Origin: Candidatus Enterousia merdequi
GTDB taxonomy: Bacteria; Pseudomonadota; Alphaproteobacteria; Rs-D84
Length of the DNA: 25,505 bases
Direction of reading: 5' to 3'
Assembly (NCBI GenBank): GCA_018065345.1
Contig: JAGHTM010000123.1
Span: 1 to 25,505 of the forward strand
The notes under the pieces are model-generated. The model was not told where the DNA came from. It ran no database searches and saw only the letters and a program-made list of their open reading frames with translations. Both the position numbers and the translations under genes were made by a program. Below are positions 2,413 to 25,505 of this stretch, one piece after another (position 1 is the stretch's first letter; each line of letters begins with the position of its first letter).

Positions 2413-4398
2413 ATGCTGAATAAAGATAAACTTAATGCTTTGCTAACAGAATACAAATCTGACTTTTCTGCCCAATGGGAAAAAGAAAACTACAAAAGAA
2501 TTGCGATCAAGCACTTTCAAGACAATTGGGATATAGACGCCAAGAACTTTCACGAAATGTTGAAGAATAGTCTTAAAAAAGCTGGAAATTTACTGTTAAG
2601 TGCAAATTTCTTTCCAGGTGGCATGATTCAAAATTTTGCAGAAAGATATCCTGAACAAGTACGCAAAATGTTTCGGAATTTATTCGATGAAACAAAAGAT
2701 TTGGCAGAACGCATTGAAAACTTTAAACAAGCTGCTGATAAATTATTAGAAAAATATCAACAGAAAGAAAATGCCGCTAATCATTATCAAACAGAAAATT
2801 CCATCAGCACATATTTATGGTTACATAATCCCGATAAATATTATATTTATAAGTTCAGCGAATACAAAAGCGTTGTTAATGCATTGGATGCGGAATACAA
2901 GGTATTATGGGGAAAATCAATAGACAATTTAATTTCTTGCTTTGCGTTGTATGATGAAGTCTGCAAAATAATCGAGCAAGATAACGAACTTGCTGATTTG
3001 GTTCGTACACATACAGACAATCAACACTTTAAGGACAAAAACTTCAAGGTAACAACAGTTGATTTTTGTTTCTTTGTTTCACGTAAAAAAGACACAGGAG
3101 AAGTTATGGCAAAAACAAACAATGTCACAAGCCAAACGAACCACTGGTGGTTAACAGCCAATCCAAGCATCTGGAAATTCTCTGATATTATTATAGGTTC
3201 TGAACAATATTATACTTTGCTTAATTCTAACGGCAACCCAAGAAAGATTCCTCAGAATTTCCGAGATGCAAAAGCGGACGACTTGATTATAGGATACGAA
3301 GCTTCCCCTAAAAAAATGATTACCGCATTGTGTAAGGTAACTAAAAAAGATAAAGAAAAGCTGTATTTCACAAAAATTAAAGATTTTGTAAATCCTGTTG
3401 ATTATCAAACCCTAAAAGCAATACCAGAACTGGCGGATTTAGAATTCTTCAAAAACCCAAACGGTAGTCTGTTTAAAGTAACAGAAATGGAATACAATGC
3501 CATCATGGACTTAATTGATGATGGTAATGCCCAACCAAATCTGTTAAACAGCGTAACATCTTTTGATAAATATACGAAAAAAGAGTTTTTGAGAGATGTG
3601 TTTATGTCATCAGAAAAATATGACGAATTGGTTGATCTATTAAAAACCAAGAAGAATATTATTTTACAGGGCGCACCGGGTGTTGGTAAAACATATGCCG
3701 CTGAACGCCTTGCGTATTCCATAATGGGCAGCAAGGATAAATCGCGTGTCAAATTCATTCAGTTCCACCAAAACTATTCATATGAAGATTTTGTTATAGG
3801 ATATAAACCAACAAATACAGGATTTGAACTGAAACGAGGCGTATTTTATGAATTCTGCATGAAAGCGGCGAACGACCCATCACAAGATTATTTCTTTATA
3901 ATCGATGAAATCAATCGCGGAAACATGAGCAAAATCTTCGGTGAATTGCTTATGATGATAGAATCTGACTATAGAAACAAACCTGTACAATTGGCATACA
4001 CAAAGGATTCTTTTATTGTGCCAGAAAACCTACATATCATCGGCATGATGAATACTGCAGACCGTAGCTTAGCCATGATAGATTACGCTTTGCGTCGCAG
4101 ATTTAGTTTTGTAAATATGGAGCCAGGGTTTAACACTGCAGGATTTAAGAAATATCTTGAACGAAACCCTAAATTTAAGGCATTAACAGCAAAGATTGTT
4201 GAATTAAACGCAAAAATTACAGCAGACGCATCTTTAGGGAAAGGTTTTTGTATCGGGCACAGCTATTTGTGCAAACCTGATTCTGATATAAAATCGATCA
4301 TAAAATACGATTTGATACCATTGATTGAAGAATATTGGTTTGACAATGAAACAACTCAGAAACAACACATAACCTTTCTGGAAGAGCTTGTTAAATGA
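2413..4398 (+). CDS. mcrB: McrB-family GTPase subunit of a type IV restriction system (unknown N-terminal domain + EVE-like domain + AAA+ GTPase)
   Basis: GAPGVGKT Walker A, FIQFHQNYSYEDF, IIDEINRGN Walker B, McrB signature MNTADRS, ALRRRF. The central segment HWWLTANPSIW...AKADDLIIGYEASPKK looks EVE-like. Confidence 0.92.
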   Translation: MLNKDKLNALLTEYKSDFSAQWEKENYKRIAIKHFQDNWDIDAKNFHEMLKNSLKKAGNLLLSANFFPGGMIQNFAERYPEQVRKMFRNLFDETKDLAERIENFKQAADKLLEKYQQKENAANHYQTENSISTYLWLHNPDKYYIYKFSEYKSVVNALDAEYKVLWGKSIDNLISCFALYDEVCKIIEQDNELADLVRTHTDNQHFKDKNFKVTTVDFCFFVSRKKDTGEVMAKTNNVTSQTNHWWLTANPSIWKFSDIIIGSEQYYTLLNSNGNPRKIPQNFRDAKADDLIIGYEASPKKMITALCKVTKKDKEKLYFTKIKDFVNPVDYQTLKAIPELADLEFFKNPNGSLFKVTEMEYNAIMDLIDDGNAQPNLLNSVTSFDKYTKKEFLRDVFMSSEKYDELVDLLKTKKNIILQGAPGVGKTYAAERLAYSIMGSKDKSRVKFIQFHQNYSYEDFVIGYKPTNTGFELKRGVFYEFCMKAANDPSQDYFFIIDEINRGNMSKIFGELLMMIESDYRNKPVQLAYTKDSFIVPENLHIIGMMNTADRSLAMIDYALRRRFSFVNMEPGFNTAGFKKYLERNPKFKALTAKIVELNAKITADASLGKGFCIGHSYLCKPDSDIKSIIKYDLIPLIEEYWFDNETTQKQHITFLEELVK

Positions 4399-5486
4399 TT
4401 ATCGACAAAGGTATCCGTATAAAAAATATTTACTATATGCTCAGCTATGCTTTTGAATTTATAAAGCATACTGGCTATTCAAATATGGATACCGAAGAAT
4501 TTGAGAACATTCACGATTTGTTTGCGGCTATATTAGCCCAAGGGATGGCTTATCAATTAAAAAAAGGGCTATACAAAGAATACGTACATAAAAGCGACAA
4601 TTTATCAACTGTACGTGGCAAAATAAACATTACAGAAACTATTCGCAACAAGATCCTGCAAAGACGCATTATAAATTGCGAGTTTGATGAATTGTCAGAA
4701 AATAATATTTACAATCAGATTATCAAATGTACAGCATCATTATTGCTTCGTCATGGTAATGTTGAAGCCAAGTATAAATCGCGTTTAAAGCAGAGTTTAT
4801 TGTTTTTTTCAAATGTTGATGATATTGATTTAAAAACCGTAAAATGGGGTGCAATAACCTTTCATAGAAACAATCAAAACTACAGAATATTAATAAATAT
4901 ATGCAATCTATTGGCACGAGGCCTATTACAAACAACCAACAATGGACACACTAAATTAGCTACTTTTATTGACGAACAAAGTATGTGCCGTTTGTACGAA
5001 AAATTTATATTAGAATATTACAAACAAGAACACAGCAATACAGTTAAATCAGAAGCGTTGCAAATTCCTTGGGTTTTAGATGATGATAATCAAAATCTGT
5101 TACCAATTATGCAAACAGACATTACACTAACTAGGAAAGGTAAAAATAGGCAAGACATACTGATTATCGATGCAAAATATTACCGAAATACGCTATCAAG
5201 CAACAATCACTCTGATAAATTAACACTGCATTCAGGCAATATGTATCAAATATTCACCTATGTAAAGAATAAAGATGCGGATTTGTTGCGTAAAAACATA
5301 CAGCACAGGGTTTCTGGAATGCTGCTGTACGCAAAAACAGAAGAACAAATCACACTTGATAATTCATATCAAATGAGTGGGAATAATATATGTGTAAAAA
5401 ACCTTGATCTAAACCAAGACTTTTCTGAAATACGAAAACAATTAGACCAAATCTTAACCGACTGTTTTGACACTTTAACATATTAA
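4395..5486 (+). CDS. mcrC: McrC-family restriction endonuclease subunit
   Basis: Overlaps the mcrB stop codon (ATGA). IKNIYYMLSYAF N-terminus, PD-(D/E)xK-type TDITL...IIDAKYY, NMYQIFTY and GMLLYAK. Confidence 0.92.
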   Translation: MIIDKGIRIKNIYYMLSYAFEFIKHTGYSNMDTEEFENIHDLFAAILAQGMAYQLKKGLYKEYVHKSDNLSTVRGKINITETIRNKILQRRIINCEFDELSENNIYNQIIKCTASLLLRHGNVEAKYKSRLKQSLLFFSNVDDIDLKTVKWGAITFHRNNQNYRILINICNLLARGLLQTTNNGHTKLATFIDEQSMCRLYEKFILEYYKQEHSNTVKSEALQIPWVLDDDNQNLLPIMQTDITLTRKGKNRQDILIIDAKYYRNTLSSNNHSDKLTLHSGNMYQIFTYVKNKDADLLRKNIQHRVSGMLLYAKTEEQITLDNSYQMSGNNICVKNLDLNQDFSEIRKQLDQILTDCFDTLTY

Positions 5487-5531
5487 CGTCAAACACTTTG
5501 CTTTACACCCTATGGCGCATTCGTGTAATCT

Positions 5532-5614
5532 TTTAGAAAGATTTCGCAAACTCTACTCAGGCTAGTAAATTCTTCTGGATTTTCTACCCGATACGTGCGA
5601 GTTATCTCGAGCCA
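5532..5614. repeat. 83-bp direct repeat, copy 1 (right end of module A; encodes an integrase tail on the minus strand)
   Basis: 76/83 identical, without gaps, to 25254-25336. Ends in CGAGCCA. Minus strand reads WLEITRTYRVENPEEFTSLSRVCEIFLK. Confidence 0.92.
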
Positions 5615-5622
5615 CAGTTAAC

Positions 5623-5650
5623 ACCGTTCCTAAAAGGAGCGGTTTTTATT
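5623..5650 (+). terminator. Rho-independent terminator-like hairpin
   Basis: accgttcc-taaaa-ggagcggt followed by ttttatt. Confidence 0.7.
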
Positions 5651-5662
5651 TATCACATCATA

Positions 5663-5690
5663 TTGACTTTTTACTTCTTGAATATAAAAT
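5663..5690 (+). promoter_or_regulatory. Putative sigma70 promoter of the Hsp70-like gene
   Basis: TTGACT-N16-TAAAAT; AGGAG ribosome-binding site at 5704-5708 ahead of the ATG at 5715. Confidence 0.45.
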
Positions 5691-5714
5691 GTTATTTATA
5701 TCTAGGAGCAGCCT

Positions 5715-6989
5715 ATGTCCATATATGTTGCGGGCATTGATTTCGGAACTACTAATTCATCAGCAGCCATTTCCGATGGCAAAGTTGTGCAAATGATAGA
5801 TGTAGAAAAAGGTAAAGATACAATACCTACTGCTTTGTTTTTTCCTGATAAATCTAATCAAATACTCTATGGCCGAGAAGCCCAAACAAAATACACCAGC
5901 GAAGAAAATCCTGGCCGTTTTATGCGCAGTATGAAACGTATATTAGGAACGTCTTTAATGCAAGAAGGAACTGTTATCAATGGTAAATCTGTAAGCTTTG
6001 ATGATATCGTTGGTTATTTTATAAAACACATAAAACAAAAGATCGATAAAGCCGCCGGACAAAATGTAGAAAGCGTTGTTATGGGGCGACCTGTTCACTT
6101 TTGTGACGACGACCCAGAAGGTGACAAGCGCGCCGAACAAGAACTGAAAAAAATTGCCCTGGCTGCTGGATTTAAACATGTAGCATTTCAATACGAACCT
6201 ATTGCTGCAGCTTTTGCTCACGAACAAAATATAACATCTGATAAATTAGCTTTTGTGGTAGACATTGGTGGTGGAACTTCTGACTTTACTGTTATCAGAT
6301 TATCACCAAACAGAAAATTTAATTTTGATAGAACCTCTGATGTTTTAGCAAACACAGGCGTTCGCATAGGCGGTAATGATTTCGATAAAGATTTATCTAT
6401 AAAATCTTTTATGCCTTGCTTTGGTTTAGGAACAAAATATAAAACTTATAACAAAGATATTTATTTACCAACAGGACCTTTTATCAGCCTGTCAACTTGG
6501 AGTTCTGTTAATGAAGTTTATAATTACAAGACATTAAATATGGTAAAAGATTATGTTGTTTGGGGTTTAGAACCAGAAAAGACTCAACGCCTTTACGAAA
6601 TCATAGAAAATCGCTTGGGACATCAAAATCTGGATTATGTGGAAAATGCAAAAATTGCTTTATCAGAAATAGCAGAATACGATATTAAACTAGACTTTTT
6701 ATCAGATGCACCAACAATTCATATAAATCGTGAACTATTTGAAAAAGCTATTGAACAAAATGTTAAAAAAATCGAAAAATCAGTTCAAGAATGTTTGAAT
6801 AAGGCAAAAGTCAAAAACACTGATATAGAGTTGGTAATTTTAACTGGTGGTTCAACCGAAATTCCATATATTAACAACGCAATGCAATCATATTTTCCAA
6901 AAGCTAAAGTTTCTTCTGAAAATAAAATGGCTAGTGTAGGTTTAGGACTAGCATATGATGCCATGCGCCGTTTTTATAAAAAACCATAA
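5715..6989 (+). CDS. yegD: YegD-like Hsp70-family ATPase (no canonical peptide-binding domain)
   Basis: GIDFGTTNS, GRPVHF, FQYEPIAAA, VDIGGGTSDF, IGGNDFD and VILTGGST; 424 aa, shorter than DnaK. Confidence 0.85.
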   Translation: MSIYVAGIDFGTTNSSAAISDGKVVQMIDVEKGKDTIPTALFFPDKSNQILYGREAQTKYTSEENPGRFMRSMKRILGTSLMQEGTVINGKSVSFDDIVGYFIKHIKQKIDKAAGQNVESVVMGRPVHFCDDDPEGDKRAEQELKKIALAAGFKHVAFQYEPIAAAFAHEQNITSDKLAFVVDIGGGTSDFTVIRLSPNRKFNFDRTSDVLANTGVRIGGNDFDKDLSIKSFMPCFGLGTKYKTYNKDIYLPTGPFISLSTWSSVNEVYNYKTLNMVKDYVVWGLEPEKTQRLYEIIENRLGHQNLDYVENAKIALSEIAEYDIKLDFLSDAPTIHINRELFEKAIEQNVKKIEKSVQECLNKAKVKNTDIELVILTGGSTEIPYINNAMQSYFPKAKVSSENKMASVGLGLAYDAMRRFYKKP

Positions 6990-7012
6990 ATTGTAAGTTA
7001 TTATTTCAGACA

Positions 7013-7891
7013 TTATACATAGGAGTCTTCCATATGTCTGCATGCAATTAATTTCTTTAATCTTTTTATATTTTGTTCTCTAGAAACCCAACTTAATTCT
7101 GGATGTGCAAAACTCATTAAAAACATGCATATACAATAAAAGAATTGTCGTGATTTAAAACCATTATCCATCTTCTTTCCATATCCAATTTCCAAGAATT
7201 TTTGTGGTTCACCAAACATATATCTAAATTCATAAGCAGGGTCTGCATAATGAAAAGCACCAAAATCTATTACTCCTGTTATTTGATAATCTTTTGTTGA
7301 CACCATTATATTATTAAAATGCAAATCTGCATGACACGGCAACAAATCAATTGATTTTGCAGTTTGTTCAAAATTCAATAAACTATTATTAATAATTGAT
7401 ATTTCTTCTTTGGTTAACTGTTTTTGTAAACCAGGTGTAAACCATTTATAAAAATTATCTTTCTGATATTCAGCAGAACGTATTAATCTATTTTGTAACT
7501 TTGATACCTTAATAGAATTAATTTCTGCGTAAATCTTTCCGTATTCAATTAAAAAATTTTCACGTATTTTTTTAGGCAAATTTCTATATATTTCATACGA
7601 AAAAGGATTACCGTCAATTTTTTCTTCTATTATTATTTCACGACCATCTGATAACAATCCATGATTTATCATATTTGGTGTAATAAAATTTACTTTATTT
7701 TTAATATATTCCAAAACATCACTTTCAGAATTTTGATACTCATTTATACTGTTGCTTTTTGATACTTTTACTACATATTTATTATTGATATCCCAGGTTT
7801 TAGCAAATAAACCTTCACCCAAAAATTTAATATCCTTTATAGAAACATCAGAAATATTTTCTAATAAAAACAGATATATTTCATTTTCCAT
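7013..7891 (-). CDS. Aminoglycoside-phosphotransferase/choline-kinase-fold protein
   Basis: LGEGLFAK glycine loop, VVKV, Brenner motif CHADLHFNNIMV, GVIDFG and DPAYEF. Substrate cannot be inferred. Confidence 0.85.
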   Translation of the reverse strand: MENEIYLFLLENISDVSIKDIKFLGEGLFAKTWDINNKYVVKVSKSNSINEYQNSESDVLEYIKNKVNFITPNMINHGLLSDGREIIIEEKIDGNPFSYEIYRNLPKKIRENFLIEYGKIYAEINSIKVSKLQNRLIRSAEYQKDNFYKWFTPGLQKQLTKEEISIINNSLLNFEQTAKSIDLLPCHADLHFNNIMVSTKDYQITGVIDFGAFHYADPAYEFRYMFGEPQKFLEIGYGKKMDNGFKSRQFFYCICMFLMSFAHPELSWVSREQNIKRLKKLIACRHMEDSYV

Positions 7892-18760: not shown

Positions 18761-18786
18761 CTGTTAATCCGTATGTCACTGGTTCG
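18761..18786 (+). mobile_element. Internal tRNA-Asn(GTT) fragment (anticodon loop to T-loop), att remnant
   Basis: CTGTTAA-TCCGT-ATGTC-ACTGG-TTCG matches the layout and, from memory, the sequence of bacterial tRNA-Asn. The 5' anticodon-stem strand and the 3' end are missing, so it is not a functional tRNA. Confidence 0.8.
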
Positions 18787-18893
18787 GTGCAGAAAAACTA
18801 ACCACACATAATGAAGCCTTGTTCAGCGATGCCGGAAGAATACCTGTTCTTATAAACACACCATATATTGAAGAATAAAAAAATGGAGATTTT

Positions 18894-19406
18894 TTAAATC
18901 CCCAATTTTTTCAGTTTTTTATTCCAATCTTTTTGTTTTTCTTCAAATTTCATAGAAAGAGCCGCACTACTTGATTTTAATATTTTATCTTCGTCAACTT
19001 CTGGCCAATTTGCATATTTAGGATTTTTCTTTGCTTTTATGTAGTAATTATACGCTTTCTTACCATTAAAAAGTATATTCTTGCCATTTAATTTAAAAAG
19101 GTCGTTATAAACCTCGTTCTTTATATGTTTATCAGCGCTCGTATTTTTACCATTATCGTCTCTGTCGCAATATTTTATTACATCCCACAAACCGATACCT
19201 TTGTCTTTTAATGCTTCAAAATCGCCAAATTTTATTCCTAAAAGTTCCCAAAATTTGTTTGTGGGGTTTGAATAATATTTATTGCACTTTAATGATTCTT
19301 CGCCTGGAAATGTTCCCAATATTACAACTTTTGCAGCATCAATATTAAACGGTTTTATTTTATGACGAGACAAAATTGTTTTTTTCAACAAGGTTTTTAT
19401 ATTCAT
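18894..19406 (-). CDS. Uracil-DNA-glycosylase superfamily protein (MUG/hypoxanthine-DNA glycosylase-like)
   Basis: VILGTFPGEESL, YYSNPTNKFW, IGLWDVI, ILFNGKKA and LKSSSAA. Confidence 0.82.
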   Translation of the reverse strand: MNIKTLLKKTILSRHKIKPFNIDAAKVVILGTFPGEESLKCNKYYSNPTNKFWELLGIKFGDFEALKDKGIGLWDVIKYCDRDDNGKNTSADKHIKNEVYNDLFKLNGKNILFNGKKAYNYYIKAKKNPKYANWPEVDEDKILKSSSAALSMKFEEKQKDWNKKLKKLGI

Positions 19407-19409
19407 ATT

Positions 19410-19520
19410 TTATGCCTTTATAACTTTCTGTATCACTTCTAGCATTTGCCGGTCACAAAAATCAATAAAATTCTTACTGACTTCATCACCGTTATGTATT
19501 CCAAGATTATCATAACACAT
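19410..19520 (-). CDS. Small ORF or gene remnant (36 aa, not in the ORF track)
   Basis: MCYDNLGIHNGDEVSKNFIDFCDRQMLEVIQKVIKA; stops 3 nt before the glycosylase ATG. Confidence 0.3.
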   Translation of the reverse strand: MCYDNLGIHNGDEVSKNFIDFCDRQMLEVIQKVIKA

Positions 19521-19560
19521 TTCTGAAACAAAAAACAACCGAATCTTATAGTTGACTTTA

Positions 19561-19911
19561 TTAAGATACAAAAATAACCTTTTCCATAAAATCCATTATA
19601 TCTATTTTTTGCTTCCAATAATCCATTAGCAAATCAAAATTTAGAATTATAAATTGTTTTATCTGTTGTATATCTGTGTCAGATATAATGATTTTACTGT
19701 TACACCCAAGTATTTTTGGAGTTTTAGATATAGATATAAAAATCATATTTTCAGATCTTATATCAGAATAATTGTTTTGAAAAGCAAGTTTTGGTTCGTT
19801 ATTCTTAGTTTTCCGTTCAATACCTATATCGTCAACCCACAGAAAGACCGCTAAGCCCGTAACATGTTTTGGAATTACAGTCATCCACATATCTTGCTCA
19901 TCTTGTGTCAT
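19561..19911 (-). CDS. Small hypothetical protein (116 aa)
   Basis: Probable start MTQDEQ at 19911, overlapping the end of the upstream gene. TGLAVFLWVD...PKL and NFDLLMDYW loosely recall DUF4160-like proteins (weak). Confidence 0.65.
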   Translation of the reverse strand: MTQDEQDMWMTVIPKHVTGLAVFLWVDDIGIERKTKNNEPKLAFQNNYSDIRSENMIFISISKTPKILGCNSKIIISDTDIQQIKQFIILNFDLLMDYWKQKIDIMDFMEKVIFVS

Positions 19912-20605
19912 ATTTCTTTTTCTTGTTTCCCAATTCAAAAACAAACCTGTCTATTTGTTTCATCGGCGGATAACCATGATTATATTTTTTTAAACTTGAT
20001 TGATATTGCTTATAAAATTTCCACCATTTAATAATTTCTTCTGCAGAAACGGTTTTTGAAAATTTTATTGTTTCACCATCAATGCAGGGTTTTAATTTAT
20101 TATTTAATTCGTCAACTCCCTGTTTGAAAAATCTGTCGTATGCAGGTGTTATACCAATAGTACCTAATATAATTTTCGTTACTAATGTATTAGTTAATGT
20201 TGAATCTGTCTTCAAATTTTTATTTTTAATGTACTCTGAATAATACTTTATATAAGCTTTGTTTAACTTTTTTATTAGGTCGTTAAAATATTTTTCAAAC
20301 CCTTCTTCGTTGTCAAGTCTTGGTTTCCACAATTTTGAACAGCATAAGGTTTTTATGGCATTTTTATGAATAGTATAATCATAATTTAACAAAAAAGAGG
20401 AACCTCTATACATACCCCAACTGGCTAAATAAAACCCCAAATGTAATTCGGCTAATTCCATTTTTTCTTTAGACCCTTCTATTTGGTCATGATTTTGTTG
20501 AAAAAAATCATAACAATGCTTCCAAGACAAATATCTTGTATTTGTCTTGTCTCTTTTTTTGCTATTTTTAATGGTTTTTTGTATCGCTTTTTGTATTTCT
20601 GTCAT
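19898..20605 (-). CDS. Conserved-looking hypothetical protein, possible HhH/OGG-like DNA glycosylase fold
   Basis: RYLSWKHCY, HLGFYLASWGMYRGSSFLL, LVTKIILGTIGITPAYD and YPPMKQID. The fold assignment is inference from the TK...PxYD spacing. Confidence 0.7.
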   Translation of the reverse strand: MTEIQKAIQKTIKNSKKRDKTNTRYLSWKHCYDFFQQNHDQIEGSKEKMELAELHLGFYLASWGMYRGSSFLLNYDYTIHKNAIKTLCCSKLWKPRLDNEEGFEKYFNDLIKKLNKAYIKYYSEYIKNKNLKTDSTLTNTLVTKIILGTIGITPAYDRFFKQGVDELNNKLKPCIDGETIKFSKTVSAEEIIKWWKFYKQYQSSLKKYNHGYPPMKQIDRFVFELGNKKKKYDTR

Positions 20606-20662
20606 ATTTTTCTTCTTTTATTCTGTTTCATATGTTATACCACTAACGTATTTTTTGATATC

Positions 20663-21709
20663 TTATCCACGCAGTTTGTCGGTTATGGTTACTAATTCTT
20701 CATCTGAAATATACGCAGTATGCATACGCACAGGCATACACCCCGCATCACTAAATAACATATCACCAAAAGGCAACAACTGTTCTGCACCTTTTTCATC
20801 TAAGATTGCGTTTGAATCTTTACCGGTCTGTGTTTGGAAAGATACACGCGTTGGACAGTTAGCTTTAATAATGTTAGTAATAACATCAGAAGAACATCTT
20901 TGGGTTGCTATTACAAGATGTATTCCTGTGGCCCGAGCCTTTTGGAGCAAATATTGAATATTAGATTCAACATCTTTTTTTGCAATAACCATAAGATCTG
21001 CTAATTCATCTATTGCAACAATAATATATGGCATATCGTTTTTATGTGTCTTTTCTTTATATTCTTTGATTGTTTTTACCTTATGTTGCTTTAAGATTTG
21101 ATACCTTTCTTCCATAGTCTGTACCATAGATTTTAAAATATTAATAGCTTCATAAGTATCATTTATAATTGGCATATATAAATGTTTTTCTTTTTCCCAT
21201 TTGTTTATTCCAGCAAATTCTACGCTTTTTGGATCTATTATTATAAATTGGCATTCTGACGGTTTTAATTTTTCAGACAATGATTTTAGCATAGATTTCA
21301 GCAAATTCGTTTTGCCAGACCCTGTTCTTCCACCTATCAATAAATGTGGAAATTTTTGCAAATCGCTAATCATTATATTACCCAAAGTATCTGTTCCAAG
21401 AACAACAGGTAATGTTGCCTTGGATGTTTGAAATTCTTTACTTTGCAGTAATTTATTAAGGGATATCGTTTGACCAACTTCTTTCGGAACCTCAAAAACA
21501 ACAGTTTGATTGTTATAATCAGGACGAACACGACCACTAACCAGTTGTGCCAATTTAGTCGCCTTATTCATATTGAAATTATCATCTGGTTTATAGATGA
21601 AGTTATTTACCTTTGGTCCCTCTTGAATATCTAATAAACTCCCCTTAAAAGCATTACCAATATTGTTATAAAAATTTACCACTAATTCTTGATCTTTTGT
21701 TAATGTCAT
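20663..21709 (-). CDS. Stand-alone FtsK/SpoIIIE-family ATPase motor domain
   Basis: PHLLIGGRTGSGKT, IIDPK, IVAIDELADLM, KARATGIHLVIATQR and GAEQLLPFGDMLF; no transmembrane N-terminus, no gamma domain. Confidence 0.88.
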   Translation of the reverse strand: MTLTKDQELVVNFYNNIGNAFKGSLLDIQEGPKVNNFIYKPDDNFNMNKATKLAQLVSGRVRPDYNNQTVVFEVPKEVGQTISLNKLLQSKEFQTSKATLPVVLGTDTLGNIMISDLQKFPHLLIGGRTGSGKTNLLKSMLKSLSEKLKPSECQFIIIDPKSVEFAGINKWEKEKHLYMPIINDTYEAINILKSMVQTMEERYQILKQHKVKTIKEYKEKTHKNDMPYIIVAIDELADLMVIAKKDVESNIQYLLQKARATGIHLVIATQRCSSDVITNIIKANCPTRVSFQTQTGKDSNAILDEKGAEQLLPFGDMLFSDAGCMPVRMHTAYISDEELVTITDKLRG

Positions 21710-21795
21710 TAGTCCGCTCCTTTATTGCTTAAATTTTGATATTTTCATCATAAATAATCCATTTTTAATATACTGTCATGATACATCAAACAAGA

Positions 21796-23874
21796 TTAAA
21801 AGTGAAATCCTATTTTTACTTTATGTTCACGACAATTTTTAACCTGTTGTTCCTGACGCAATCTGGATAACAATTCGGCTTTATCGGTAATATCCAGTAA
21901 ATCGGCTTGATTTTTTACCACCACAAAATCCCCAGGCGCAAGATTTACCAAATCAACAATTTCGTCTTTTGATACATCTTGGTTGAAAAAATCTTTAAAA
22001 GCGGCTATCACTTGATCTGGTTTTAAGAAATCATATTTAACTTTGAAAGAAAATCTACGCAGAGCCGCTTTATCTATATTAGCCATCAAATTAGTTGTAC
22101 AAACAAACGGATATTCAGCAGCTTCCATTTGGGTTAACATTTCATTAACACTGCTTACTTCCCAAGAATGTCCGGCATGAGTACGATCCATCAAAAAAAC
22201 ATCTGCTTCATCAAAAACTAACATAGCTTTTTTTGCATGTGCTTCCTGAAAAGCTTTTGCAATATTTTGTTCGGTTTCACCAACCCATTTACTGTTTATA
22301 TCGCTTGCACGTTTTTTTATTATTTTCATGCCCAATAAATCAGCCAAATATTCACAGAAAGCGGTTTTTCCTGTACCTGGTGCACCATAAAGACACACTG
22401 AAAAATTTTTCAAATTTTTATTTTTGATTTGATTTGCTAATTTTTCTAAGTCAATATCTGTATTCAACAATTTTGTATTAAACTTTACACCATTCGACTT
22501 TTTATTTCTTGATGGTTTACCTGTTATAGCCTGACTTAAATGTTCCAAAGTATAATCGACAAAATTAATATTGTTCACAATTTTTGCGTTTTTTACAGCG
22601 GTTTCTATCATAGATATTGGCACCTGATATTTATTTATCAACCTCTTGATATCTTCATCAGAACTTTTGAGTTCATACTTTTCAAATATACGTTTCCATG
22701 CATTAATTTTTGCATGTTCGTCTGGGTTAGAAACTTCTAACGCAATTGAAAATCTACGAACATACGCTTTATCCATATCTTCCAAATTATTTGTTATCCA
22801 TATCACTGGACGTTTATTGTTTTCCAATATACGATTTATATATAATTTACTGGGGCTATGTCTGCTAAACGGGTCAAAAGAAAACACATCTTCTGCTTCG
22901 TCAAACAAAACGACTGATTTTTCTTCATTTTTTAATACGGTTTGCACCTGCGCAAGATTTGAAAATCTATCATCTTTTTCTTGTTGTTTTTCAGATGTGG
23001 TATACAAATTTAACCCCACACAATCACAAATAGTTTTCGCCATTTCGGTTTTTCCTGTTCCTGGCGAACCATACAAAAGGATGTTTATTCCTTTACTATT
23101 TGAATTAATCCCATTGGTTAAAATTTCGGATACTTTATCAAAATCATCTGCTATATAATCAAAATTTTCACGGTTTAGAGTTGTTGATAAAGGACTACCA
23201 ACCAAAACATCACGCACTTCTTTACAACTTTTAAAGTTCATTGTTAATAAACCTAAAAATGTTTTATTAAATTCATTATCACCATAACGATTTTTTAATA
23301 TGCCAGATTCAAACAATGGTCCATTTTGAGCAAATGCTTCCCTGATTTCTTGTTCTGGCATTTTGCATACAGTAGCTATAAAATCCGAATTATTTTCATT
23401 AAAAAAATAATTAAGGTCTATATCGTCGTTATAACAACCTAACAAATTACGTAATATCAGGTTATTTTTCATACAAACTAAAAATTGCAATAATCGTCTG
23501 CAATTATCTGGTAAATCAAATGTTTCACATACCATTGTAAAATTTTTATCAAAATCAGGTTTTGTTATATCGACTTTATAATCATCCTTTCTGGCATCAA
23601 CCATTTTTGATACATGTTGGTATAAATTGTCGTCTGACAATAAACTGTTACGCCATAATTTACCATTCAATAAATATCTGACAAACTCTATTTTATCGTC
23701 ATCAGGGGCCAATTTATCACCATTATTTAATACATCTCGCAAACAAAATCCGAATAAATCAGAAGAGTATTTGGAAATTTTATGAATAAAAAAATCCGTA
23801 TCTTCTGGTTCATATTCGCTGTTTACTATATTTCTTAAATAACACAAAATAATTTGCCTATCTTTTATGTTCAT
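21796..23874 (-). CDS. Tandem (double-ring) AAA+ ATPase, SpoVK/Cdc48-like
   Basis: Two modules: YGSPGTGKT...LFDEAE...ITNN...RRF and YGAPGTGKT...SKWVGETEQN...VFDEAD...AALRRF; ends KIGFHF. Confidence 0.9.
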   Translation of the reverse strand: MNIKDRQIILCYLRNIVNSEYEPEDTDFFIHKISKYSSDLFGFCLRDVLNNGDKLAPDDDKIEFVRYLLNGKLWRNSLLSDDNLYQHVSKMVDARKDDYKVDITKPDFDKNFTMVCETFDLPDNCRRLLQFLVCMKNNLILRNLLGCYNDDIDLNYFFNENNSDFIATVCKMPEQEIREAFAQNGPLFESGILKNRYGDNEFNKTFLGLLTMNFKSCKEVRDVLVGSPLSTTLNRENFDYIADDFDKVSEILTNGINSNSKGINILLYGSPGTGKTEMAKTICDCVGLNLYTTSEKQQEKDDRFSNLAQVQTVLKNEEKSVVLFDEAEDVFSFDPFSRHSPSKLYINRILENNKRPVIWITNNLEDMDKAYVRRFSIALEVSNPDEHAKINAWKRIFEKYELKSSDEDIKRLINKYQVPISMIETAVKNAKIVNNINFVDYTLEHLSQAITGKPSRNKKSNGVKFNTKLLNTDIDLEKLANQIKNKNLKNFSVCLYGAPGTGKTAFCEYLADLLGMKIIKKRASDINSKWVGETEQNIAKAFQEAHAKKAMLVFDEADVFLMDRTHAGHSWEVSSVNEMLTQMEAAEYPFVCTTNLMANIDKAALRRFSFKVKYDFLKPDQVIAAFKDFFNQDVSKDEIVDLVNLAPGDFVVVKNQADLLDITDKAELLSRLRQEQQVKNCREHKVKIGFHF

Positions 23875-23919
23875 GGGTAGCCTCTTTTGCTTGGTTCAAA
23901 TTTAATATAACCAACCCTT

Positions 23920-23936
23920 TGGACAAAAACGGTCCA
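23920..23936. promoter_or_regulatory. Candidate WYL-regulator operator
   Basis: TGGAC-N7-GTCCA inverted repeat in the 123-bp divergent intergenic region between the AAA and WYL genes. Confidence 0.45.
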
Positions 23937-23997
23937 TTTTTCTTTACTTATAAACAAATATTTGATATCATACTGGCATATAAACCAGAGAGGCAAA

Positions 23998-25050
23998 ATG
24001 TCTGAATTACGCAACAATTATAAAAAAACAGATATAAAATTAAATCTTATTAACGAATTACGTGCCAATTATATGACCCGCGAAGATATCCGGAATTTTT
24101 TATCGTCTGAATATAAGCGTTTGGGTAAAACACCTGCTGATTGTAAAAATATTGCAGAATATAAAGTAAGTGAAAGAACTGTTAAACGCACAATAGATTC
24201 TATCAAAGATTCATATGGCGACCAACTGGAAGAAGAAGCCGGCGCATATAAATTAGATTTACACGATTTTCCAGATACAATCAACGACACTGAAATTCGA
24301 GCTTTGGAGTTTGCTATCCAAAAAACAGCAAATAATTTAAACGAGCACAAATTACTGGAAAACCTGAAAGCCAAACTAACCACCAGATTATACCGTAAAA
24401 TTGAACACACAGAACCACGGAAAGCGGCTAGCAAGATAAACGACATAGATCAAATGATAAACGCTGATTTTGCTTTTGTTGGTCCGCACCCAGACATAAA
24501 ATTTGATTCAAACATTAAATCCCTGATAGATTCTGCAATCAGCAAACAACATGAAATACGCTTTAAGTATCACGATCGCGAACATAATGTATGTCCTTTG
24601 GGAATTATGTATGGCCCAAATAATGTTTATCTTGTTGCTTATATTTGTAAAAATGGCAAGGTCTGCACCGACCCTAGACATTATATTGTATCTAATATTA
24701 CAGATGTGATTGATACAGGTAATCGGTTTAACAAAGATAATACTTTTTCATTAAAAACATATGCCAAAGATATGTTTGGAATTTATAACGATGGTGCTGT
24801 ATATGATGTGGAATGGTTAATCAAAAATCCAGAAATTATAAAATTAGTAAAAAAATATCAATTCCATCCAACACAAAAATTCATAAATAATCCAAACGGT
24901 ACATTGACAATAAAAATGCGTACTGGCGGTTTGCGCGCAATCAGTACATATTTGACCCAATGGTGTGGCGATATCATACCAGTTAGACCAAAAGAATTAT
25001 TGGGTGAATACAAAAATCTATTAAAAAAATGTCTGGATTCTATTAAATAA
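23998..25050 (+). CDS. WYL-domain transcriptional regulator (HTH-WYL-WCX, BrxR/CapW-like)
   Basis: HTH segment YKVSERTVKRTIDSI, WYL segment EIRFKY...VCPLGI...VYLVAY...RHYIVSNI, C-terminal FHPTQK...LTIK. Start moved to the ATG at 23998, which has GAGG upstream. Confidence 0.88.
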   Translation: MSELRNNYKKTDIKLNLINELRANYMTREDIRNFLSSEYKRLGKTPADCKNIAEYKVSERTVKRTIDSIKDSYGDQLEEEAGAYKLDLHDFPDTINDTEIRALEFAIQKTANNLNEHKLLENLKAKLTTRLYRKIEHTEPRKAASKINDIDQMINADFAFVGPHPDIKFDSNIKSLIDSAISKQHEIRFKYHDREHNVCPLGIMYGPNNVYLVAYICKNGKVCTDPRHYIVSNITDVIDTGNRFNKDNTFSLKTYAKDMFGIYNDGAVYDVEWLIKNPEIIKLVKKYQFHPTQKFINNPNGTLTIKMRTGGLRAISTYLTQWCGDIIPVRPKELLGEYKNLLKKCLDSIK

Positions 25051-25243
25051 AAAACAAAAATATGGATTACAACTTAGCAGTAATTACACACAATGAATTC
25101 TGTACAAAATACAACAGGTTAAAAAATCTGCTATAAAAAATACTCTTGAAAAAACAACATTACTATCTCAGTTTTTTAGTTTTATTTTACTTTTTCCCTA
25201 ACATATTACCGAAACCCGTTCTATTTTTGTTATGTTGATGCTT

Positions 25244-25505
25244 TTACATATTCTTTAGAAAGATTTCGCATACTCTACCCAAACTAGTAAATTCTTCTGG
25301 ATTTTCTGCCCGATATGAGCGAGTTATCTCGAGCCAAGTTGGACATCCCTTGAAATTCACTATAGTTTCAAGGGATTTTTTTAGAGAAATCTGCACATTA
25401 CAGCCATCTATAAAAAAGTTAGAGGTCAGCATTTTTATTAGTACCCTTTTTTTATCAAAACCTCTAACTTTTAGCCTGTAATGGCTGTTTTCTGCCACTT
25501 TTATT
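25244..25505 (-). CDS. C-terminus of a large serine recombinase-like integrase (runs off the window edge)
   Basis: Frame open to the window end. KKRVLIKMLTSNFFIDGCNVQISLKKSLE...GCPTWL matches the C-terminal pattern of tRNA-targeting serine recombinases. The catalytic domain is not visible. Confidence 0.6.
   Translation of the reverse strand, partial: IKVAENSHYRLKVRGFDKKRVLIKMLTSNFFIDGCNVQISLKKSLETIVNFKGCPTWLEITRSYRAENPEEFTSLGRVCEIFLKNM
25254..25336. repeat. 83-bp direct repeat, copy 2 (element right end, att-like junction)
   Basis: 76/83 identical to 5532-5614; ends in CGAGCCA. Confidence 0.92.
25345..25382 (+). terminator. Rho-independent terminator-like hairpin
   Basis: atcccttgaaa-ttcactatag-tttcaagggat (11-bp stem) followed by a T run; encoded antisense inside the integrase end. 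Confidence 0.75.

What the first reader, a model, noticed from the sequence alone, without database searches (positions are those of the whole stretch)
18894..25050. WYL regulator divergent from a tandem-AAA / FtsK / putative glycosylase gene run: candidate undescribed defence or damage-response module
Seen: the WYL gene is head-to-head with five or six co-oriented genes (692-aa double AAA+, FtsK motor, 235-aa HhH-like, 116-aa small protein, 36-aa ORF, UDG-family), bounded by the tRNA fragment and the 25336 junction. Established: WYL regulators such as BrxR and CapW control anti-phage operons and sense nucleic acids, and some DNA glycosylases (e.g. Brig1) are anti-phage effectors. I cannot match this combination to a named system. 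Inference: an inducible module in which the ATPases remodel or translocate and the glycosylases attack modified or damaged DNA. Gaps of 58-150 nt mean it may not be one transcript.
Basis: partly seen in the sequence, partly recalled or inferred. Interest (0 to 1): 0.8.

Follow-up and report, generated by a model that had tools for sequence, protein, structure and literature searches.

The report
WYL-switched AAA+ module, cargo swapped
The gene run is a patchwork: only the WYL sensor-regulator and the double AAA+ ATPase form a conserved, widespread and so far undescribed pair (probably switched on by DNA damage or phage attack), while its usual nuclease gene has been gutted here and replaced by an FtsK-type motor and two stray genes.

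Summary

The conserved unit is a DriD-like WYL regulator (23998-25050, +) placed head-to-head with a 692-aa tandem AAA+ ATPase (21796-23874, -). The two share a 123-bp promoter region. It holds a TGGAC-N7-GTCCA palindrome that is conserved in relatives and occurs only once in this genome.

This pair recurs across at least eight phyla, on plasmids and on phage-like contigs. WYL lies within 5 genes of the ATPase in 51 of 79 distant loci. The downstream partners change from locus to locus: DUF2779 Cas4-like nuclease, GmrSD, RecB/AddA-like and others.

In close relatives the operon is AAA+ -> DUF2779 -> UDG. Here DUF2779 codons 7-421 are replaced by a 2.2-kb cassette (FtsK-like motor, 235-aa protein, 116-aa protein). 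A 9-codon stub and the "36-aa ORF" remnant are left behind.

The UDG is an intact family-6 (hypoxanthine-type) glycosylase. The 235-aa protein is not demonstrably a glycosylase. The 235-aa and 116-aa genes accompany this module nowhere else.

No PADLOC or NCBIfam system matches. Earlier agents of this scan reported the same WYL/AAA+/DUF2779 module on other genomes, and my independent analysis agrees. Function (defence or damage response) is untested.

The parts
23998..25050 (+). DriD-like WYL-domain transcription regulator. The listed ORF starts at a TTG at 23962; the ATG at 23998 is the conserved start.
   Evidence: Pfam WYL 26 bits against a cut-off of 21.8. PADLOC WYL models 4.8e-17. The best solved relative is DriD 8tp8, E 4.8e-14, residues 143-334 aligned to 143-328. 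Orthologues of 91/58/41% identity track AAA+ identity of 88/65/53%.
23920..23936 (.). Palindrome TGGAC-N7-GTCCA in the 123-bp WYL/AAA+ intergenic region; the putative WYL operator.
   Evidence: Conserved in position while the flanks diverge (A6). GGAC-N7-GTCC with an AT-rich spacer is present in 20 of 37 non-identical divergent pairs, and one more distant pair carries CGAC-N7-GTCG. It is the only copy in the 737-kb assembly, with 0 for the control pattern. The architecture is the same as the DriD site CGAC-N7-GTCG (PMC10853764).
21796..23874 (-). Tandem AAA+ ATPase (692 aa). The N-terminal region of about 245 aa includes a winged-helix-like part, followed by D1 and D2, both of the classic AAA type.
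   Evidence: PF00004 twice, 9e-40. phrog_10401 over its full length, 3e-93. Walker A, Walker B and Arg residues are invariant in both domains. The N-domain model has pLDDT 87.9, and residues ~105-215 resemble winged-helix domains at Z 4-6, which is weak. The IteA equivalog scores 97.7 against a cut-off of 510, so it is not a member.
21722..21751 (-). 5' stub of the DUF2779 nuclease gene: 9 codons, then a stop.
   Evidence: Alignment A2 with three relatives. Homology runs through the AAA+ stop, the intergenic spacer and the first ~6 codons of DUF2779, and ends at ~21733.
20663..21709 (-). FtsK/SpoIIIE-like soluble motor (348 aa) with no gamma domain; the first gene of the inserted cassette.
   Evidence: PF01580 159 bits. 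Matches the C-terminal motor of SspH and mad8 in PADLOC. Walker A and B are intact, and the nearest relative (63% identity, 427 aa) carries an extra FtsK_gamma domain. It is an accessory paralogue: 37 of 38 high-quality genomes of the genus have a canonical ~750-aa FtsK.
19898..20605 (-). 235-aa all-alpha protein from a very large unannotated family; function unknown.
   Evidence: 3961 homologues, the best only 44% identical, with unrelated contexts. Model pLDDT 86.5. Foldseek against PDB finds nothing. VIA-align places HhH-GPD glycosylases on top at Z 6.1-4. hhalign against EndoIII gives probability 0.3%.
19561..19911 (-). 116-aa protein, DUF4160-like (a lead only); foreign cargo.
   Evidence: Atlas feature and structure matches are to phage-rich DUF4160-like clusters. 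No homologue in the other 327 genomes of the order. A ~94%-identical copy sits in a different context in a gut-metagenome contig (run X2, record 11).
19410..19532 (-). 3' remnant of the DUF2779 gene, containing the '36-aa ORF' (19410-19520).
   Evidence: Aligns from residue 422 of DUF2779 of relatives, 80% identity over 25 aa. It is collinear with the DUF2779-UDG fusion of L024 over 215 aa at 57% identity.
18894..19406 (-). Family-6 UDG (hypoxanthine-DNA-glycosylase type), intact; the last gene of the ancestral operon.
   Evidence: TIGR04274 89.5 bits against a cut-off of 80. 100% amino-acid identity to the UDG that follows DUF2779 in G202. 98.9% nucleotide identity over 18785-19444. Fused to DUF2779 in two relatives.
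18884..18904 (-). Terminator-like hairpin plus T-run directly after the UDG gene.
   Evidence: The only terminator-like site on the minus strand between the AAA+ start and the end of the run.
18786..18875 (+). Last 30 codons of a second, convergent FtsK-like gene (253 aa in relatives), cut off at the tRNA-like fragment.
   Evidence: tblastn: residues 224-253 of the G202 gene at 96.7% identity. The homology block with G202 ends at 18785.
18761..18786 (+). tRNA-like fragment marking the homology breakpoint (the module's left edge).
   Evidence: Homology to relatives stops here. Not called by ARAGORN or Rfam. It is the only copy in the assembly.

Best explanation
The stretch is a mosaic built on a conserved two-gene core.

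Shown:
- A DriD-like WYL regulator and a tandem AAA+ ATPase are divergently arranged around a shared promoter region that carries a conserved GGAC-N7-GTCC palindrome.
- In the nearest relatives the ATPase operon continues with a DUF2779 (Cas4/RecB-like) nuclease and a family-6 UDG, and ends at a terminator.
- In this genome DUF2779 codons ~7-421 have been replaced by a 2.2-kb cassette: a gamma-less FtsK-like motor, a 235-aa protein of unknown function and a 116-aa DUF4160-like protein.
- Both ends of the nuclease gene survive as stubs, and the UDG is intact.

Inferred:
- As with DriD, CapW and BrxR, the WYL protein binds the palindrome as a dimer and changes transcription when its WYL domain binds single-stranded DNA made during DNA damage or phage or plasmid replication.
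- The induced ATPase is a hexameric double-ring remodeller whose variable N-terminal region contains a winged-helix-like part. It acts on a DNA-bound target or on its partner enzyme.
- The exchangeable downstream partner supplies the DNA-processing activity.
- In this copy the nuclease arm is dead. The cassette genes are probably read through from the ATPase promoter but are not proven partners.
- I lean towards an anti-phage or anti-plasmid role for the core (about 55%) over a mobile DNA-damage-response role (about 30%).
For: Core pair:
- WYL and AAA+ identities fall in step (91/58/41% against 88/65/53%).
- WYL lies within 5 genes in 30 of 45 AAA+ loci of the order and directly adjacent in 23.
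- WYL lies within 5 genes in 51 of 79 loci from Alphaproteobacteria, Elusimicrobia, Melainabacteria, Planctomycetes, Chitinispirillales, Delta-, Beta- and Gammaproteobacteria.
- The pair is also on plasmids and on viral contigs.
- This genome has only one WYL gene.

Operator:
- The palindrome is conserved, unique in the genome and DriD-like in layout.

Cassette replacement:
- 90.5% nucleotide identity to G011 over 21735-25057 stops ~60 nt after the AAA+ stop.
- The stub and the remnant are defined.
- The UDG is 100% identical to that of G202, where DUF2779 (488 aa) precedes it.
- No PF11074 match remains in the genome (in an 85%-complete genome whose control genomes also gave no match).

Cargo is foreign:
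- The 235-aa and 116-aa genes are absent from all other AAA+ loci.
- The 116-aa gene is absent from the other 327 genomes of the order.
- The best hit of the 235-aa protein among 5.8 billion proteins is 44% identical, in unrelated contexts.

Single transcription unit is plausible:
- The only minus-strand terminator-like site follows the UDG.

Accessory, island-borne nature:
- AAA+ occurs in 41 of 256 genomes of the genus at 35-89% identity.
- Neighbours include KAP, OLD, McrBC, R-M, GmrSD and RecB-like genes.

No known system matches.
Against: - There are no expression or phenotype data, and no RNA run holds the locus.
- WYL is not seen within 5 genes in about a third of the loci. Some of these are cut by contig ends or affected by my crude ORF calling.
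- FtsK-like genes do recur near the pair inside this genus (9 of 45 loci, in several arrangements, 21-76% identity), so the motor might be a genuine alternative partner rather than junk.
- The pair also lies next to RecBCD or AddAB in several lineages and its regulator is closest to a DNA-damage activator. Both facts fit repair as well as defence.
- The window comes from a metagenome-assembled genome. The left junction (~21733) had no independent contig support in the four runs I laid.
- With one mismatch allowed, the palindrome pattern is expected 1.6 times by chance in the window. Its weight therefore comes from conserved position and genome-wide uniqueness, not from its occurrence alone.
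Confidence: 0.62

Rival explanations
1. One reading: all six or seven genes form one inducible defence or damage module. The ATPases remodel or translocate, and two glycosylases attack modified or damaged DNA.
For: The genes are co-oriented and tightly spaced, with no internal terminator-like site. One WYL-controlled promoter lies upstream. The UDG is real. The 235-aa model weakly resembles HhH-GPD glycosylases.
Against: The gene set is found nowhere else. The DUF2779 stubs show a recent replacement. The 235-aa family occurs as a lone gene in unrelated contexts and has no profile similarity to EndoIII.
Confidence: 0.08
2. A true effector swap: the FtsK-like motor, with or without its two small followers, is a working alternative arm of the WYL/AAA+ system. 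It would replace nuclease attack by DNA pumping or by clearing proteins off DNA.
For: FtsK-like paralogues lie within 5 genes of the ATPase in 9 of 45 loci of the order. They are often next to WYL itself (L011, L041, L060/61, L023) and range from 21 to 76% identity. The motor motifs are intact. The gene has its own ribosome-binding site right behind the ATPase. FtsK-type motors are parts of SspFGH and MADS defence systems (PADLOC hits).
Against: Outside this genus FtsK is not seen next to the pair: 2 of 79 distant loci, both from the same genus. These small genomes may have few island hotspots, so co-location is weak evidence. Several copies are truncated or frameshifted (253-255 aa; L024). 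The gamma domain is missing here.
Confidence: 0.22
3. The WYL/AAA+ core is a horizontally moving DNA-damage response or repair module, not an immune system. ssDNA would trigger a remodeller that helps end-processing enzymes (RecBCD/AddAB, DUF2779, UDG) to deal with lesions or DNA-protein adducts.
For: The nearest solved relative is DriD, an ssDNA-sensing activator of an SOS-independent damage response, and the operator layout is the same. The pair sits directly beside recCBD in three genomes of the genus and beside AddAB-like genes on two plasmids. Recurrent partners are repair-type enzymes: UDG, RecB-like, Pif1/RecD-like and MBL nuclease.
Against: The distribution is patchy, 16% of genomes in one genus at 35-89% identity. 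The pair is carried on plasmids and phage-like contigs. It sits in defence islands and pairs with GmrSD. All of this is typical of conflict systems. CapW and BrxR also sense ssDNA (PMC11662680, abstract).
Confidence: 0.3
4. The FtsK / 235-aa / 116-aa block is debris of a mobile element (a mobilisable island or satellite) that landed in the nuclease gene and has no link to the WYL/AAA+ pair.
For: The 116-aa protein resembles phage-rich DUF4160-like families. A 94%-identical copy lies in another context. In L023 the closest full-length FtsK sits with a DnaB_C-like helicase, an excisionase-like HTH_17 gene and an integrase. The UDG block is 98.9% identical to G202 while the core is 87% identical, which indicates active recombination.
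Against: No integrase, repeats or target duplication flank the 2.2-kb block. The replacement is precise and keeps gene orientation and an RBS, so expression from the operon is likely.
Confidence: 0.3

Closest known systems
DriD of Caulobacter crescentus (WYL activator of the SOS-independent DNA-damage response; PDB 8tp8)
   Same: It is the best solved relative of the WYL protein (E 4.8e-14, WYL+WCX region, same residue numbering and length). The palindromic site has 4-bp GC-rich half-sites, a 7-nt AT-rich spacer, and lies in the regulator's own promoter region.
   Different: The half-site is GGAC rather than CGAC. The site is unique in the genome, so the regulon is local rather than global. 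The target is a tandem AAA+ operon, not didA, recA or the other known DriD targets. ssDNA binding and activator or repressor mode are untested.
BrxR / CapW wHTH-WYL-WCX repressors of BREX, CBASS and other defence islands
   Same: A WYL regulator placed next to, and probably controlling, an island-borne operon. ssDNA is the known ligand of the class (PMC11662680, PMC9122601).
   Different: No BrxR or CapW structure matched at E <= 0.01, whereas DriD did. The controlled genes are not a named defence system.
IetAS (Gao_Iet): AAA+ ATPase IetA + protease IetS
   Same: The D2 domain of the ATPase matches IetA models (PADLOC 3.9e-34 over residues 478-636).
   Different: The match is at domain level only. 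NCBIfam IteA scores 97.7 bits against a cut-off of 510. The protein here has two AAA domains plus an N-terminal region. No IetS protease is present.
Cdc48/p97-, NSF-, Pex-type double-ring classic AAA+ unfoldases
   Same: Two classic-clade AAA modules, each with Walker A, Walker B and Arg fingers, plus a distinct N-terminal region.
   Different: Scores are far below the family cut-offs (CDC48 68 against 803). The N-terminal region is alpha-helical with a winged-helix-like part, not a double-psi barrel. Its genomic partners are DNA enzymes.
DUF2779 (PF11074) Cas4-like two-domain nucleases, e.g. MMSYN1_0389 of JCVI-syn3.0
   Same: This is the ancestral partner gene of the operon in close relatives. 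It has been predicted to be a Cas4-like nuclease plus a second exonuclease domain (PMC13621843).
   Different: Here only 9 + 41 codons survive. In two relatives the gene is fused to the UDG, an architecture I did not find discussed in the papers I searched.
FtsK-type motors of defence systems (C-terminal domain of SspH in SspFGH; mad8 of MADS)
   Same: The 348-aa protein matches these models (1.7e-47 and 3.2e-30).
   Different: It has no SspF/G or MADS partners and no N-terminal sensor domains. It is a bare motor without a gamma domain.

Membership tests
DriD-type WYL regulators | WYL + WCX C-terminal region of a ~330-350-aa protein | tested here: met
   Pfam WYL is above its cut-off. DriD 8tp8 aligns residues 143-334 to 143-328 at E 4.8e-14. 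WCX is annotated on orthologues.
DriD-type WYL regulators | [quoted passage not shown] | tested here: inconclusive
   No HTH family matched residues 1-140 in Pfam at E <= 0.01. A PADLOC WYL model covers residues 65-345. No structure was predicted.
DriD-type WYL regulators | Palindromic operator, 4-bp half-sites with a 7-nt AT-rich spacer, in the regulator's own promoter | tested here: met
   TGGAC-N7-GTCCA lies at 23920-23936, 61 nt before the ATG. It is conserved across orthologous intergenic regions and unique in the genome. The DriD consensus comes from PMC10853764.
DriD-type WYL regulators | Binds ssDNA and activates transcription | not testable with these tools
   Needs EMSA or reporter assays.
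BrxR/CapW defence-island repressors | Detectable sequence relationship to solved BrxR or CapW | tested here: not met
   Only DriD-type and unnamed WYL entries appeared at E <= 0.01.
IetAS (Gao_Iet) | IetA equivalog-level match and an adjacent IetS protease | tested here: not met
   NF042959 scores 97.7 bits against a cut-off of 510. No protease gene is in the run.
Any PADLOC system | All core proteins of a named system present | tested here: not met
   Only domain-level hits appear (IetA, SspH C-terminus, mad8, WYL). The 235-aa, 116-aa and UDG proteins have none. The partner genes of relatives also give none beyond Cas4 and DUF262 domains.
FtsK/SpoIIIE translocases | Motor domain with Walker A and Walker B | tested here: met
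   PF01580 159 bits. The motifs are visible in the alignment.
FtsK/SpoIIIE translocases | Gamma (KOPS-reading) domain and membrane anchor of chromosomal FtsK | tested here: not met
   No PF09397 match, while the nearest relatives have one. The protein ends where the 427-aa relative continues for another 78 aa. The canonical ~750-aa FtsK is a separate gene in the genus.
UDG family 6 (hypoxanthine-DNA glycosylase, TIGR04274) | Score above the curated equivalog cut-off | tested here: met
   89.5 bits against 80; PF03167 7.5e-11. Substrate specificity is not testable here.
HhH-GPD DNA glycosylases (for the 235-aa protein) | Sequence or profile match to PF00730-type proteins | tested here: not met
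   No Pfam, NCBIfam, PHROG or PADLOC hit. A profile search of PDB sequences finds nothing. hhalign against 25 EndoIII-like proteins gives probability 0.3%.
HhH-GPD DNA glycosylases (for the 235-aa protein) | Shared fold | tested here: inconclusive
   Foldseek against PDB finds nothing. VIA-align ranks Tm1821, EndoIII-3, MagIII, Mag1, MutY and OGG1 on top over the whole length, but at Z 6.1-4, below the tool's caution level for helical proteins.
DUF2779 (PF11074) nuclease | Intact gene with the DUF2779 domain | tested here: not met
   Only the stub (21722-21751) and the remnant (19410-19532) remain. There is no PF11074 match in the assembly, but the control genomes also gave none, so that search alone is weak.

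The most novel reading that the evidence does not exclude
The DriD-type WYL sensor plus the winged-helix/tandem-AAA+ ATPase is the core of a new, phylum-spanning family of inducible anti-phage or anti-plasmid systems. Its 'effector slot' is refilled by cassette exchange with DUF2779(-UDG), GmrSD, RecB-like, MBL, HI_0787_N or FtsK genes. This window catches such an exchange in the act, with both stubs of the old effector still in place.
Probability: 0.35. Interest if true: 0.75.

Novelty: new variant of a known kind. Interest (0 to 1): 0.55.

Why it matters
WYL regulators are known switches of BREX, CBASS and DNA-damage regulons. A conserved pairing with a Cdc48-like double AAA+ ATPase is in none of the libraries or papers I could search.

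The pair occurs in hundreds of genomes from gut and environmental bacteria, on plasmids and on phage-like contigs.

If it is an immune system, it would add a protein-remodelling ATPase with exchangeable DNA enzymes to the defence repertoire. If it is a repair module, it would be a mobile, DriD-controlled damage response.

This copy is useful as a natural experiment. The nuclease arm is dead, the UDG and ATPase are intact, and the exact breakpoints of a cassette swap are preserved.

Tried and rejected
- **tRNA and Rfam scans of the left boundary.** No tRNA model matched, and no full copy of the tRNA-like fragment is in the assembly.
- **The 235-aa protein as a glycosylase.** Family libraries, a PDB profile search, Foldseek (PDB and AFDB clusters) and hhalign against EndoIII were all negative. 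Only a weak VIA-align signal remains. I do not call it a glycosylase.
- **N-terminal region of the ATPase.** No Pfam hit and nothing from Foldseek. There is only weak winged-helix resemblance.
- **A wider regulon.** The palindrome occurs nowhere else in the genome, so there is no separate site before FtsK, the 235-aa gene or the UDG.
- **Transcript evidence.** No RNA run holds the locus. Contigs of four DNA runs cover it only in pieces. One 151-nt contig spans the right junction with only 26 nt on one side, and none covers the left junction.
- **The window's FtsK as the housekeeping gene.** It is the only PF01580 hit in this assembly. I rejected this reading because nearly all complete genomes of the genus have a ~750-aa FtsK.
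- **Literature.** Searches for WYL with AAA+ or Cdc48, and for DUF2779, found no description of the pair.
- **Not run.** I sent no complex-prediction job, because I make no binding claim.

Full report
**Setting.** The window is contig 67 of a 737-kb, 85%-complete, ~32% GC metagenome-assembled genome. Record titles of related loci point to the gut alphaproteobacterial genus Candidatus Enterousia. The window is a defence island. It carries:
- a KAP NTPase, EVE-McrB/McrC and an Hsp70-like gene;
- an APH-fold kinase, a Gre-like factor and a CYTH protein;
- AbiLi/AbiLii and a Type III R-M system.

The finding covers the last 6 kb.

**Observation.**
- The WYL gene has a Pfam WYL domain above its cut-off.
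- The 692-aa protein has two classic AAA modules.
- The 348-aa protein is an FtsK/SpoIIIE motor.
- The 170-aa protein passes the curated cut-off of TIGR04274, the family-6 UDG (DNA-deoxyinosine glycosylase).
- The 235-aa and 116-aa proteins match nothing in Pfam, NCBIfam, PHROGs or PADLOC.

**The conserved unit is WYL + AAA+.** In relatives of the same genus the ATPase is present at 89, 68, 51, 44 and 42% identity.
- A relative (G011) is 90.5% identical at the DNA level over 21735-25057, that is, only over AAA+ and WYL.
- In public contigs the divergent pair recurs, and the two proteins diverge in step.
- In the order, the ATPase occurs in 46 of 328 genomes, including 41 of 256 in the genus, at 35-89% identity. 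This is the patchy pattern of an accessory gene.
- Of 45 loci in the order, WYL is within five genes in 30 and directly adjacent in 23.
- In 79 loci from GTDB representative genomes of many phyla, WYL is within five genes in 51.
- The pair is also on plasmids of cultured Alpha- and Gammaproteobacteria.
- It is on some IMG/VR contigs and on one unverified phage record.
- The present genome has a single WYL gene, so chance adjacency is negligible.

**Regulation.** The best solved relative of the WYL protein is DriD of Caulobacter, aligned over the WYL and WCX regions with the same numbering.
- The 123-bp intergenic region holds TGGAC-N7-GTCCA at 23920-23936.
- The element stays fixed while its flanks diverge (A6).
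- An exact GGAC-N7-GTCC with an AT-rich spacer is found in 20 of 37 distinct divergent intergenic regions. This is an undercount, because my ORF starts were generous. One more distant pair has CGAC-N7-GTCG.
- The DriD consensus is CGAC-N7-GTCG with an AT-rich centre, also found in its own promoter (PMC10853764).
- The palindrome occurs once in the whole assembly, so the regulon is local.
- Its mere occurrence in the window would not be significant when one mismatch is allowed. Conservation and uniqueness carry the argument.
- The only terminator-like site on the minus strand of the run follows the UDG.

**The downstream genes are a mosaic.**
- In G011, G010, L023 and others the ATPase is followed by a ~490-aa DUF2779 protein with a Cas4-like N-terminal part.
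- In L024/L026 and L028 that protein is fused to a UDG.
- In G202 the two are separate genes 3 nt apart, and that UDG is 100% identical in protein to the window's. The DNA is 98.9% identical over 18785-19444.
- In the window, homology to DUF2779 covers only its first ~6 codons, followed by an early stop. This is the stub at 21751-21722.
- Homology resumes from residue 422 to the end, at 19532-19410.
- The remnant contains the '36-aa ORF' and is separated from the UDG start codon by a stop and one codon, as in G202.
- The 2.2 kb between the stubs holds the FtsK-like gene with its own ribosome-binding site, the 235-aa gene and the 116-aa gene.
- Just beyond the UDG terminator, 18786-18875 keeps the last 30 codons of a second, convergent FtsK-like gene that is complete in G202. 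It is cut at the tRNA-like fragment where homology ends.

**The cassette genes.**
- *FtsK-like protein.* Its motor motifs are intact, but it lacks the gamma domain present in its closest relatives. It is an accessory paralogue: 37 of 38 high-quality genomes of the genus carry a canonical ~750-aa FtsK, and its absence from this assembly is best put down to incompleteness.
- *FtsK linkage.* FtsK-like paralogues lie within five genes of the ATPase in 9 of 45 loci of the order, in varied positions and orientations, sometimes truncated or frameshifted. Among the 79 distant loci they appear in only 2, both from the same genus. I treat the link as real at the level of the island and unproven at the level of function.
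- *235-aa protein.* It belongs to a family of about 4000 unannotated proteins across bacteria and archaea. Its best hit is 44% identical and its contexts are unrelated. The model is confident (pLDDT 86.5). Foldseek finds only its own family, and profile methods find no link to HhH-GPD enzymes. An exhaustive VIA-align search puts HhH-GPD glycosylases on top, but at Z 6.1 or less, which the tool itself rates as possibly trivial for helical proteins.
- *116-aa protein.* It resembles phage-rich DUF4160-like clusters. It has no homologue in the other 327 genomes of the order. It occurs at ~94% identity in a different context in another gut metagenome.

**What the core may do.**
- Both AAA modules have complete catalytic motifs.
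- The N-terminal 245 residues are variable among homologues. They fold confidently into a helical domain whose residues ~105-215 resemble winged-helix domains such as DnaD-N, MarR, LexA and ORC2, but only weakly.
- Recurrent partners across phyla are DNA enzymes: DUF2779 in 12 of 79 loci, a UvrD+PD-(D/E)XK RecB/AddA-like protein in 7, Pif1/RecD-like helicases in 7, an MBL/RMMBL hydrolase in 8 and DnaB_C-like proteins in 4.
- Other recurrent partners are GmrSD, ADP-ribosylglycohydrolase and a PAD_porph deiminase in 12 loci.
- In three genomes of the genus the ATPase sits directly before recC-recB-recD.
- This fits an ssDNA-triggered remodeller working with DNA end-processing enzymes. It could act against invading DNA or in damage repair.
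- None of the partners is a member of a named PADLOC system.

**Comparison with what is known, and earlier scan results.**
- No PADLOC system or NCBIfam equivalog fits.
- Full-text searches found no description of the pair.
- After I had reached this reading, look-ups in the scan's own notes showed that earlier agents reported the same WYL / Cdc48-like AAA+ / exchangeable-nuclease module, with a DriD-type operator, on several other genomes.
- My analysis agrees with theirs. It adds a case in which the effector exchange left both gene stubs behind, and it adds the DUF2779-UDG linkage.

**Verdict.**
- The conserved system is WYL + tandem AAA+ with an exchangeable DNA-enzyme arm.
- In this genome that arm is broken and overwritten by cargo of uncertain relevance.
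- Function remains untested.

Noticed in passing
L016/L037 (G114) 4173-7857; window 5715-6989: In another genome of the genus the WYL gene is followed, in the same orientation, by a 440-aa unknown gene and an Hsp70-like gene. The window also has an Hsp70-like gene 17 kb away from the module. This may be a separate Hsp70-based island system or a further partner.
   Followed up: no
L011, L012, L016, L017, L042, L050-52 (about 131-aa gene); L011, L042, L053, L060-62, L083, L087, L113 (about 415-aa MBL/RMMBL gene): A 131-aa unknown protein and an MBL-fold/RMMBL hydrolase, often with a 311-aa unknown, recur beside the more divergent AAA+/WYL pairs. One example is MBL > 311 aa > WYL > FtsK > 131 aa > AAA+ in G001. 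This could be a larger variant of the module.
   Followed up: partly
12 of 79 distant loci, e.g. L128 6375-7238: A PAD_porph (agmatine / peptidyl-arginine deiminase-type) gene is as frequent a neighbour of the AAA+ ATPase as DUF2779, mostly in Elusimicrobia and Melainabacteria.
   Followed up: no
window 5506-5619 and 25250-25338; L009 11993-12256: An ~85-110-bp segment is repeated at two places in the window, at about 81-82% identity to the same relative sequence. It encodes the C-terminal tail of an ORF that is 229 aa long in G011. I found no integrase domain in that ORF, only a weak IMD hit.
   Followed up: partly
L009 11276-11923 and cluster c5 in many loci: An HNH_3 (homing-endonuclease-type) gene of ~180-230 aa flanks the WYL gene or the ATPase in many relatives but is missing from the window.
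   Followed up: no
window 18785-19444 compared with 21733-25047: The UDG block is 98.9% identical to G202, while the adjacent AAA+/WYL block is only 87% identical to the same genome. This indicates recent recombination inside the locus.
   Followed up: partly
whole assembly G000: No canonical FtsK was found in this 85%-complete assembly. The only PF01580 hit is the island paralogue. G011 also lacks one, although it is 92% complete.
   Followed up: partly
L103, L104 (Deltaproteobacteria MAGs): Two AAA+ paralogues stand in tandem behind one WYL gene.
   Followed up: no
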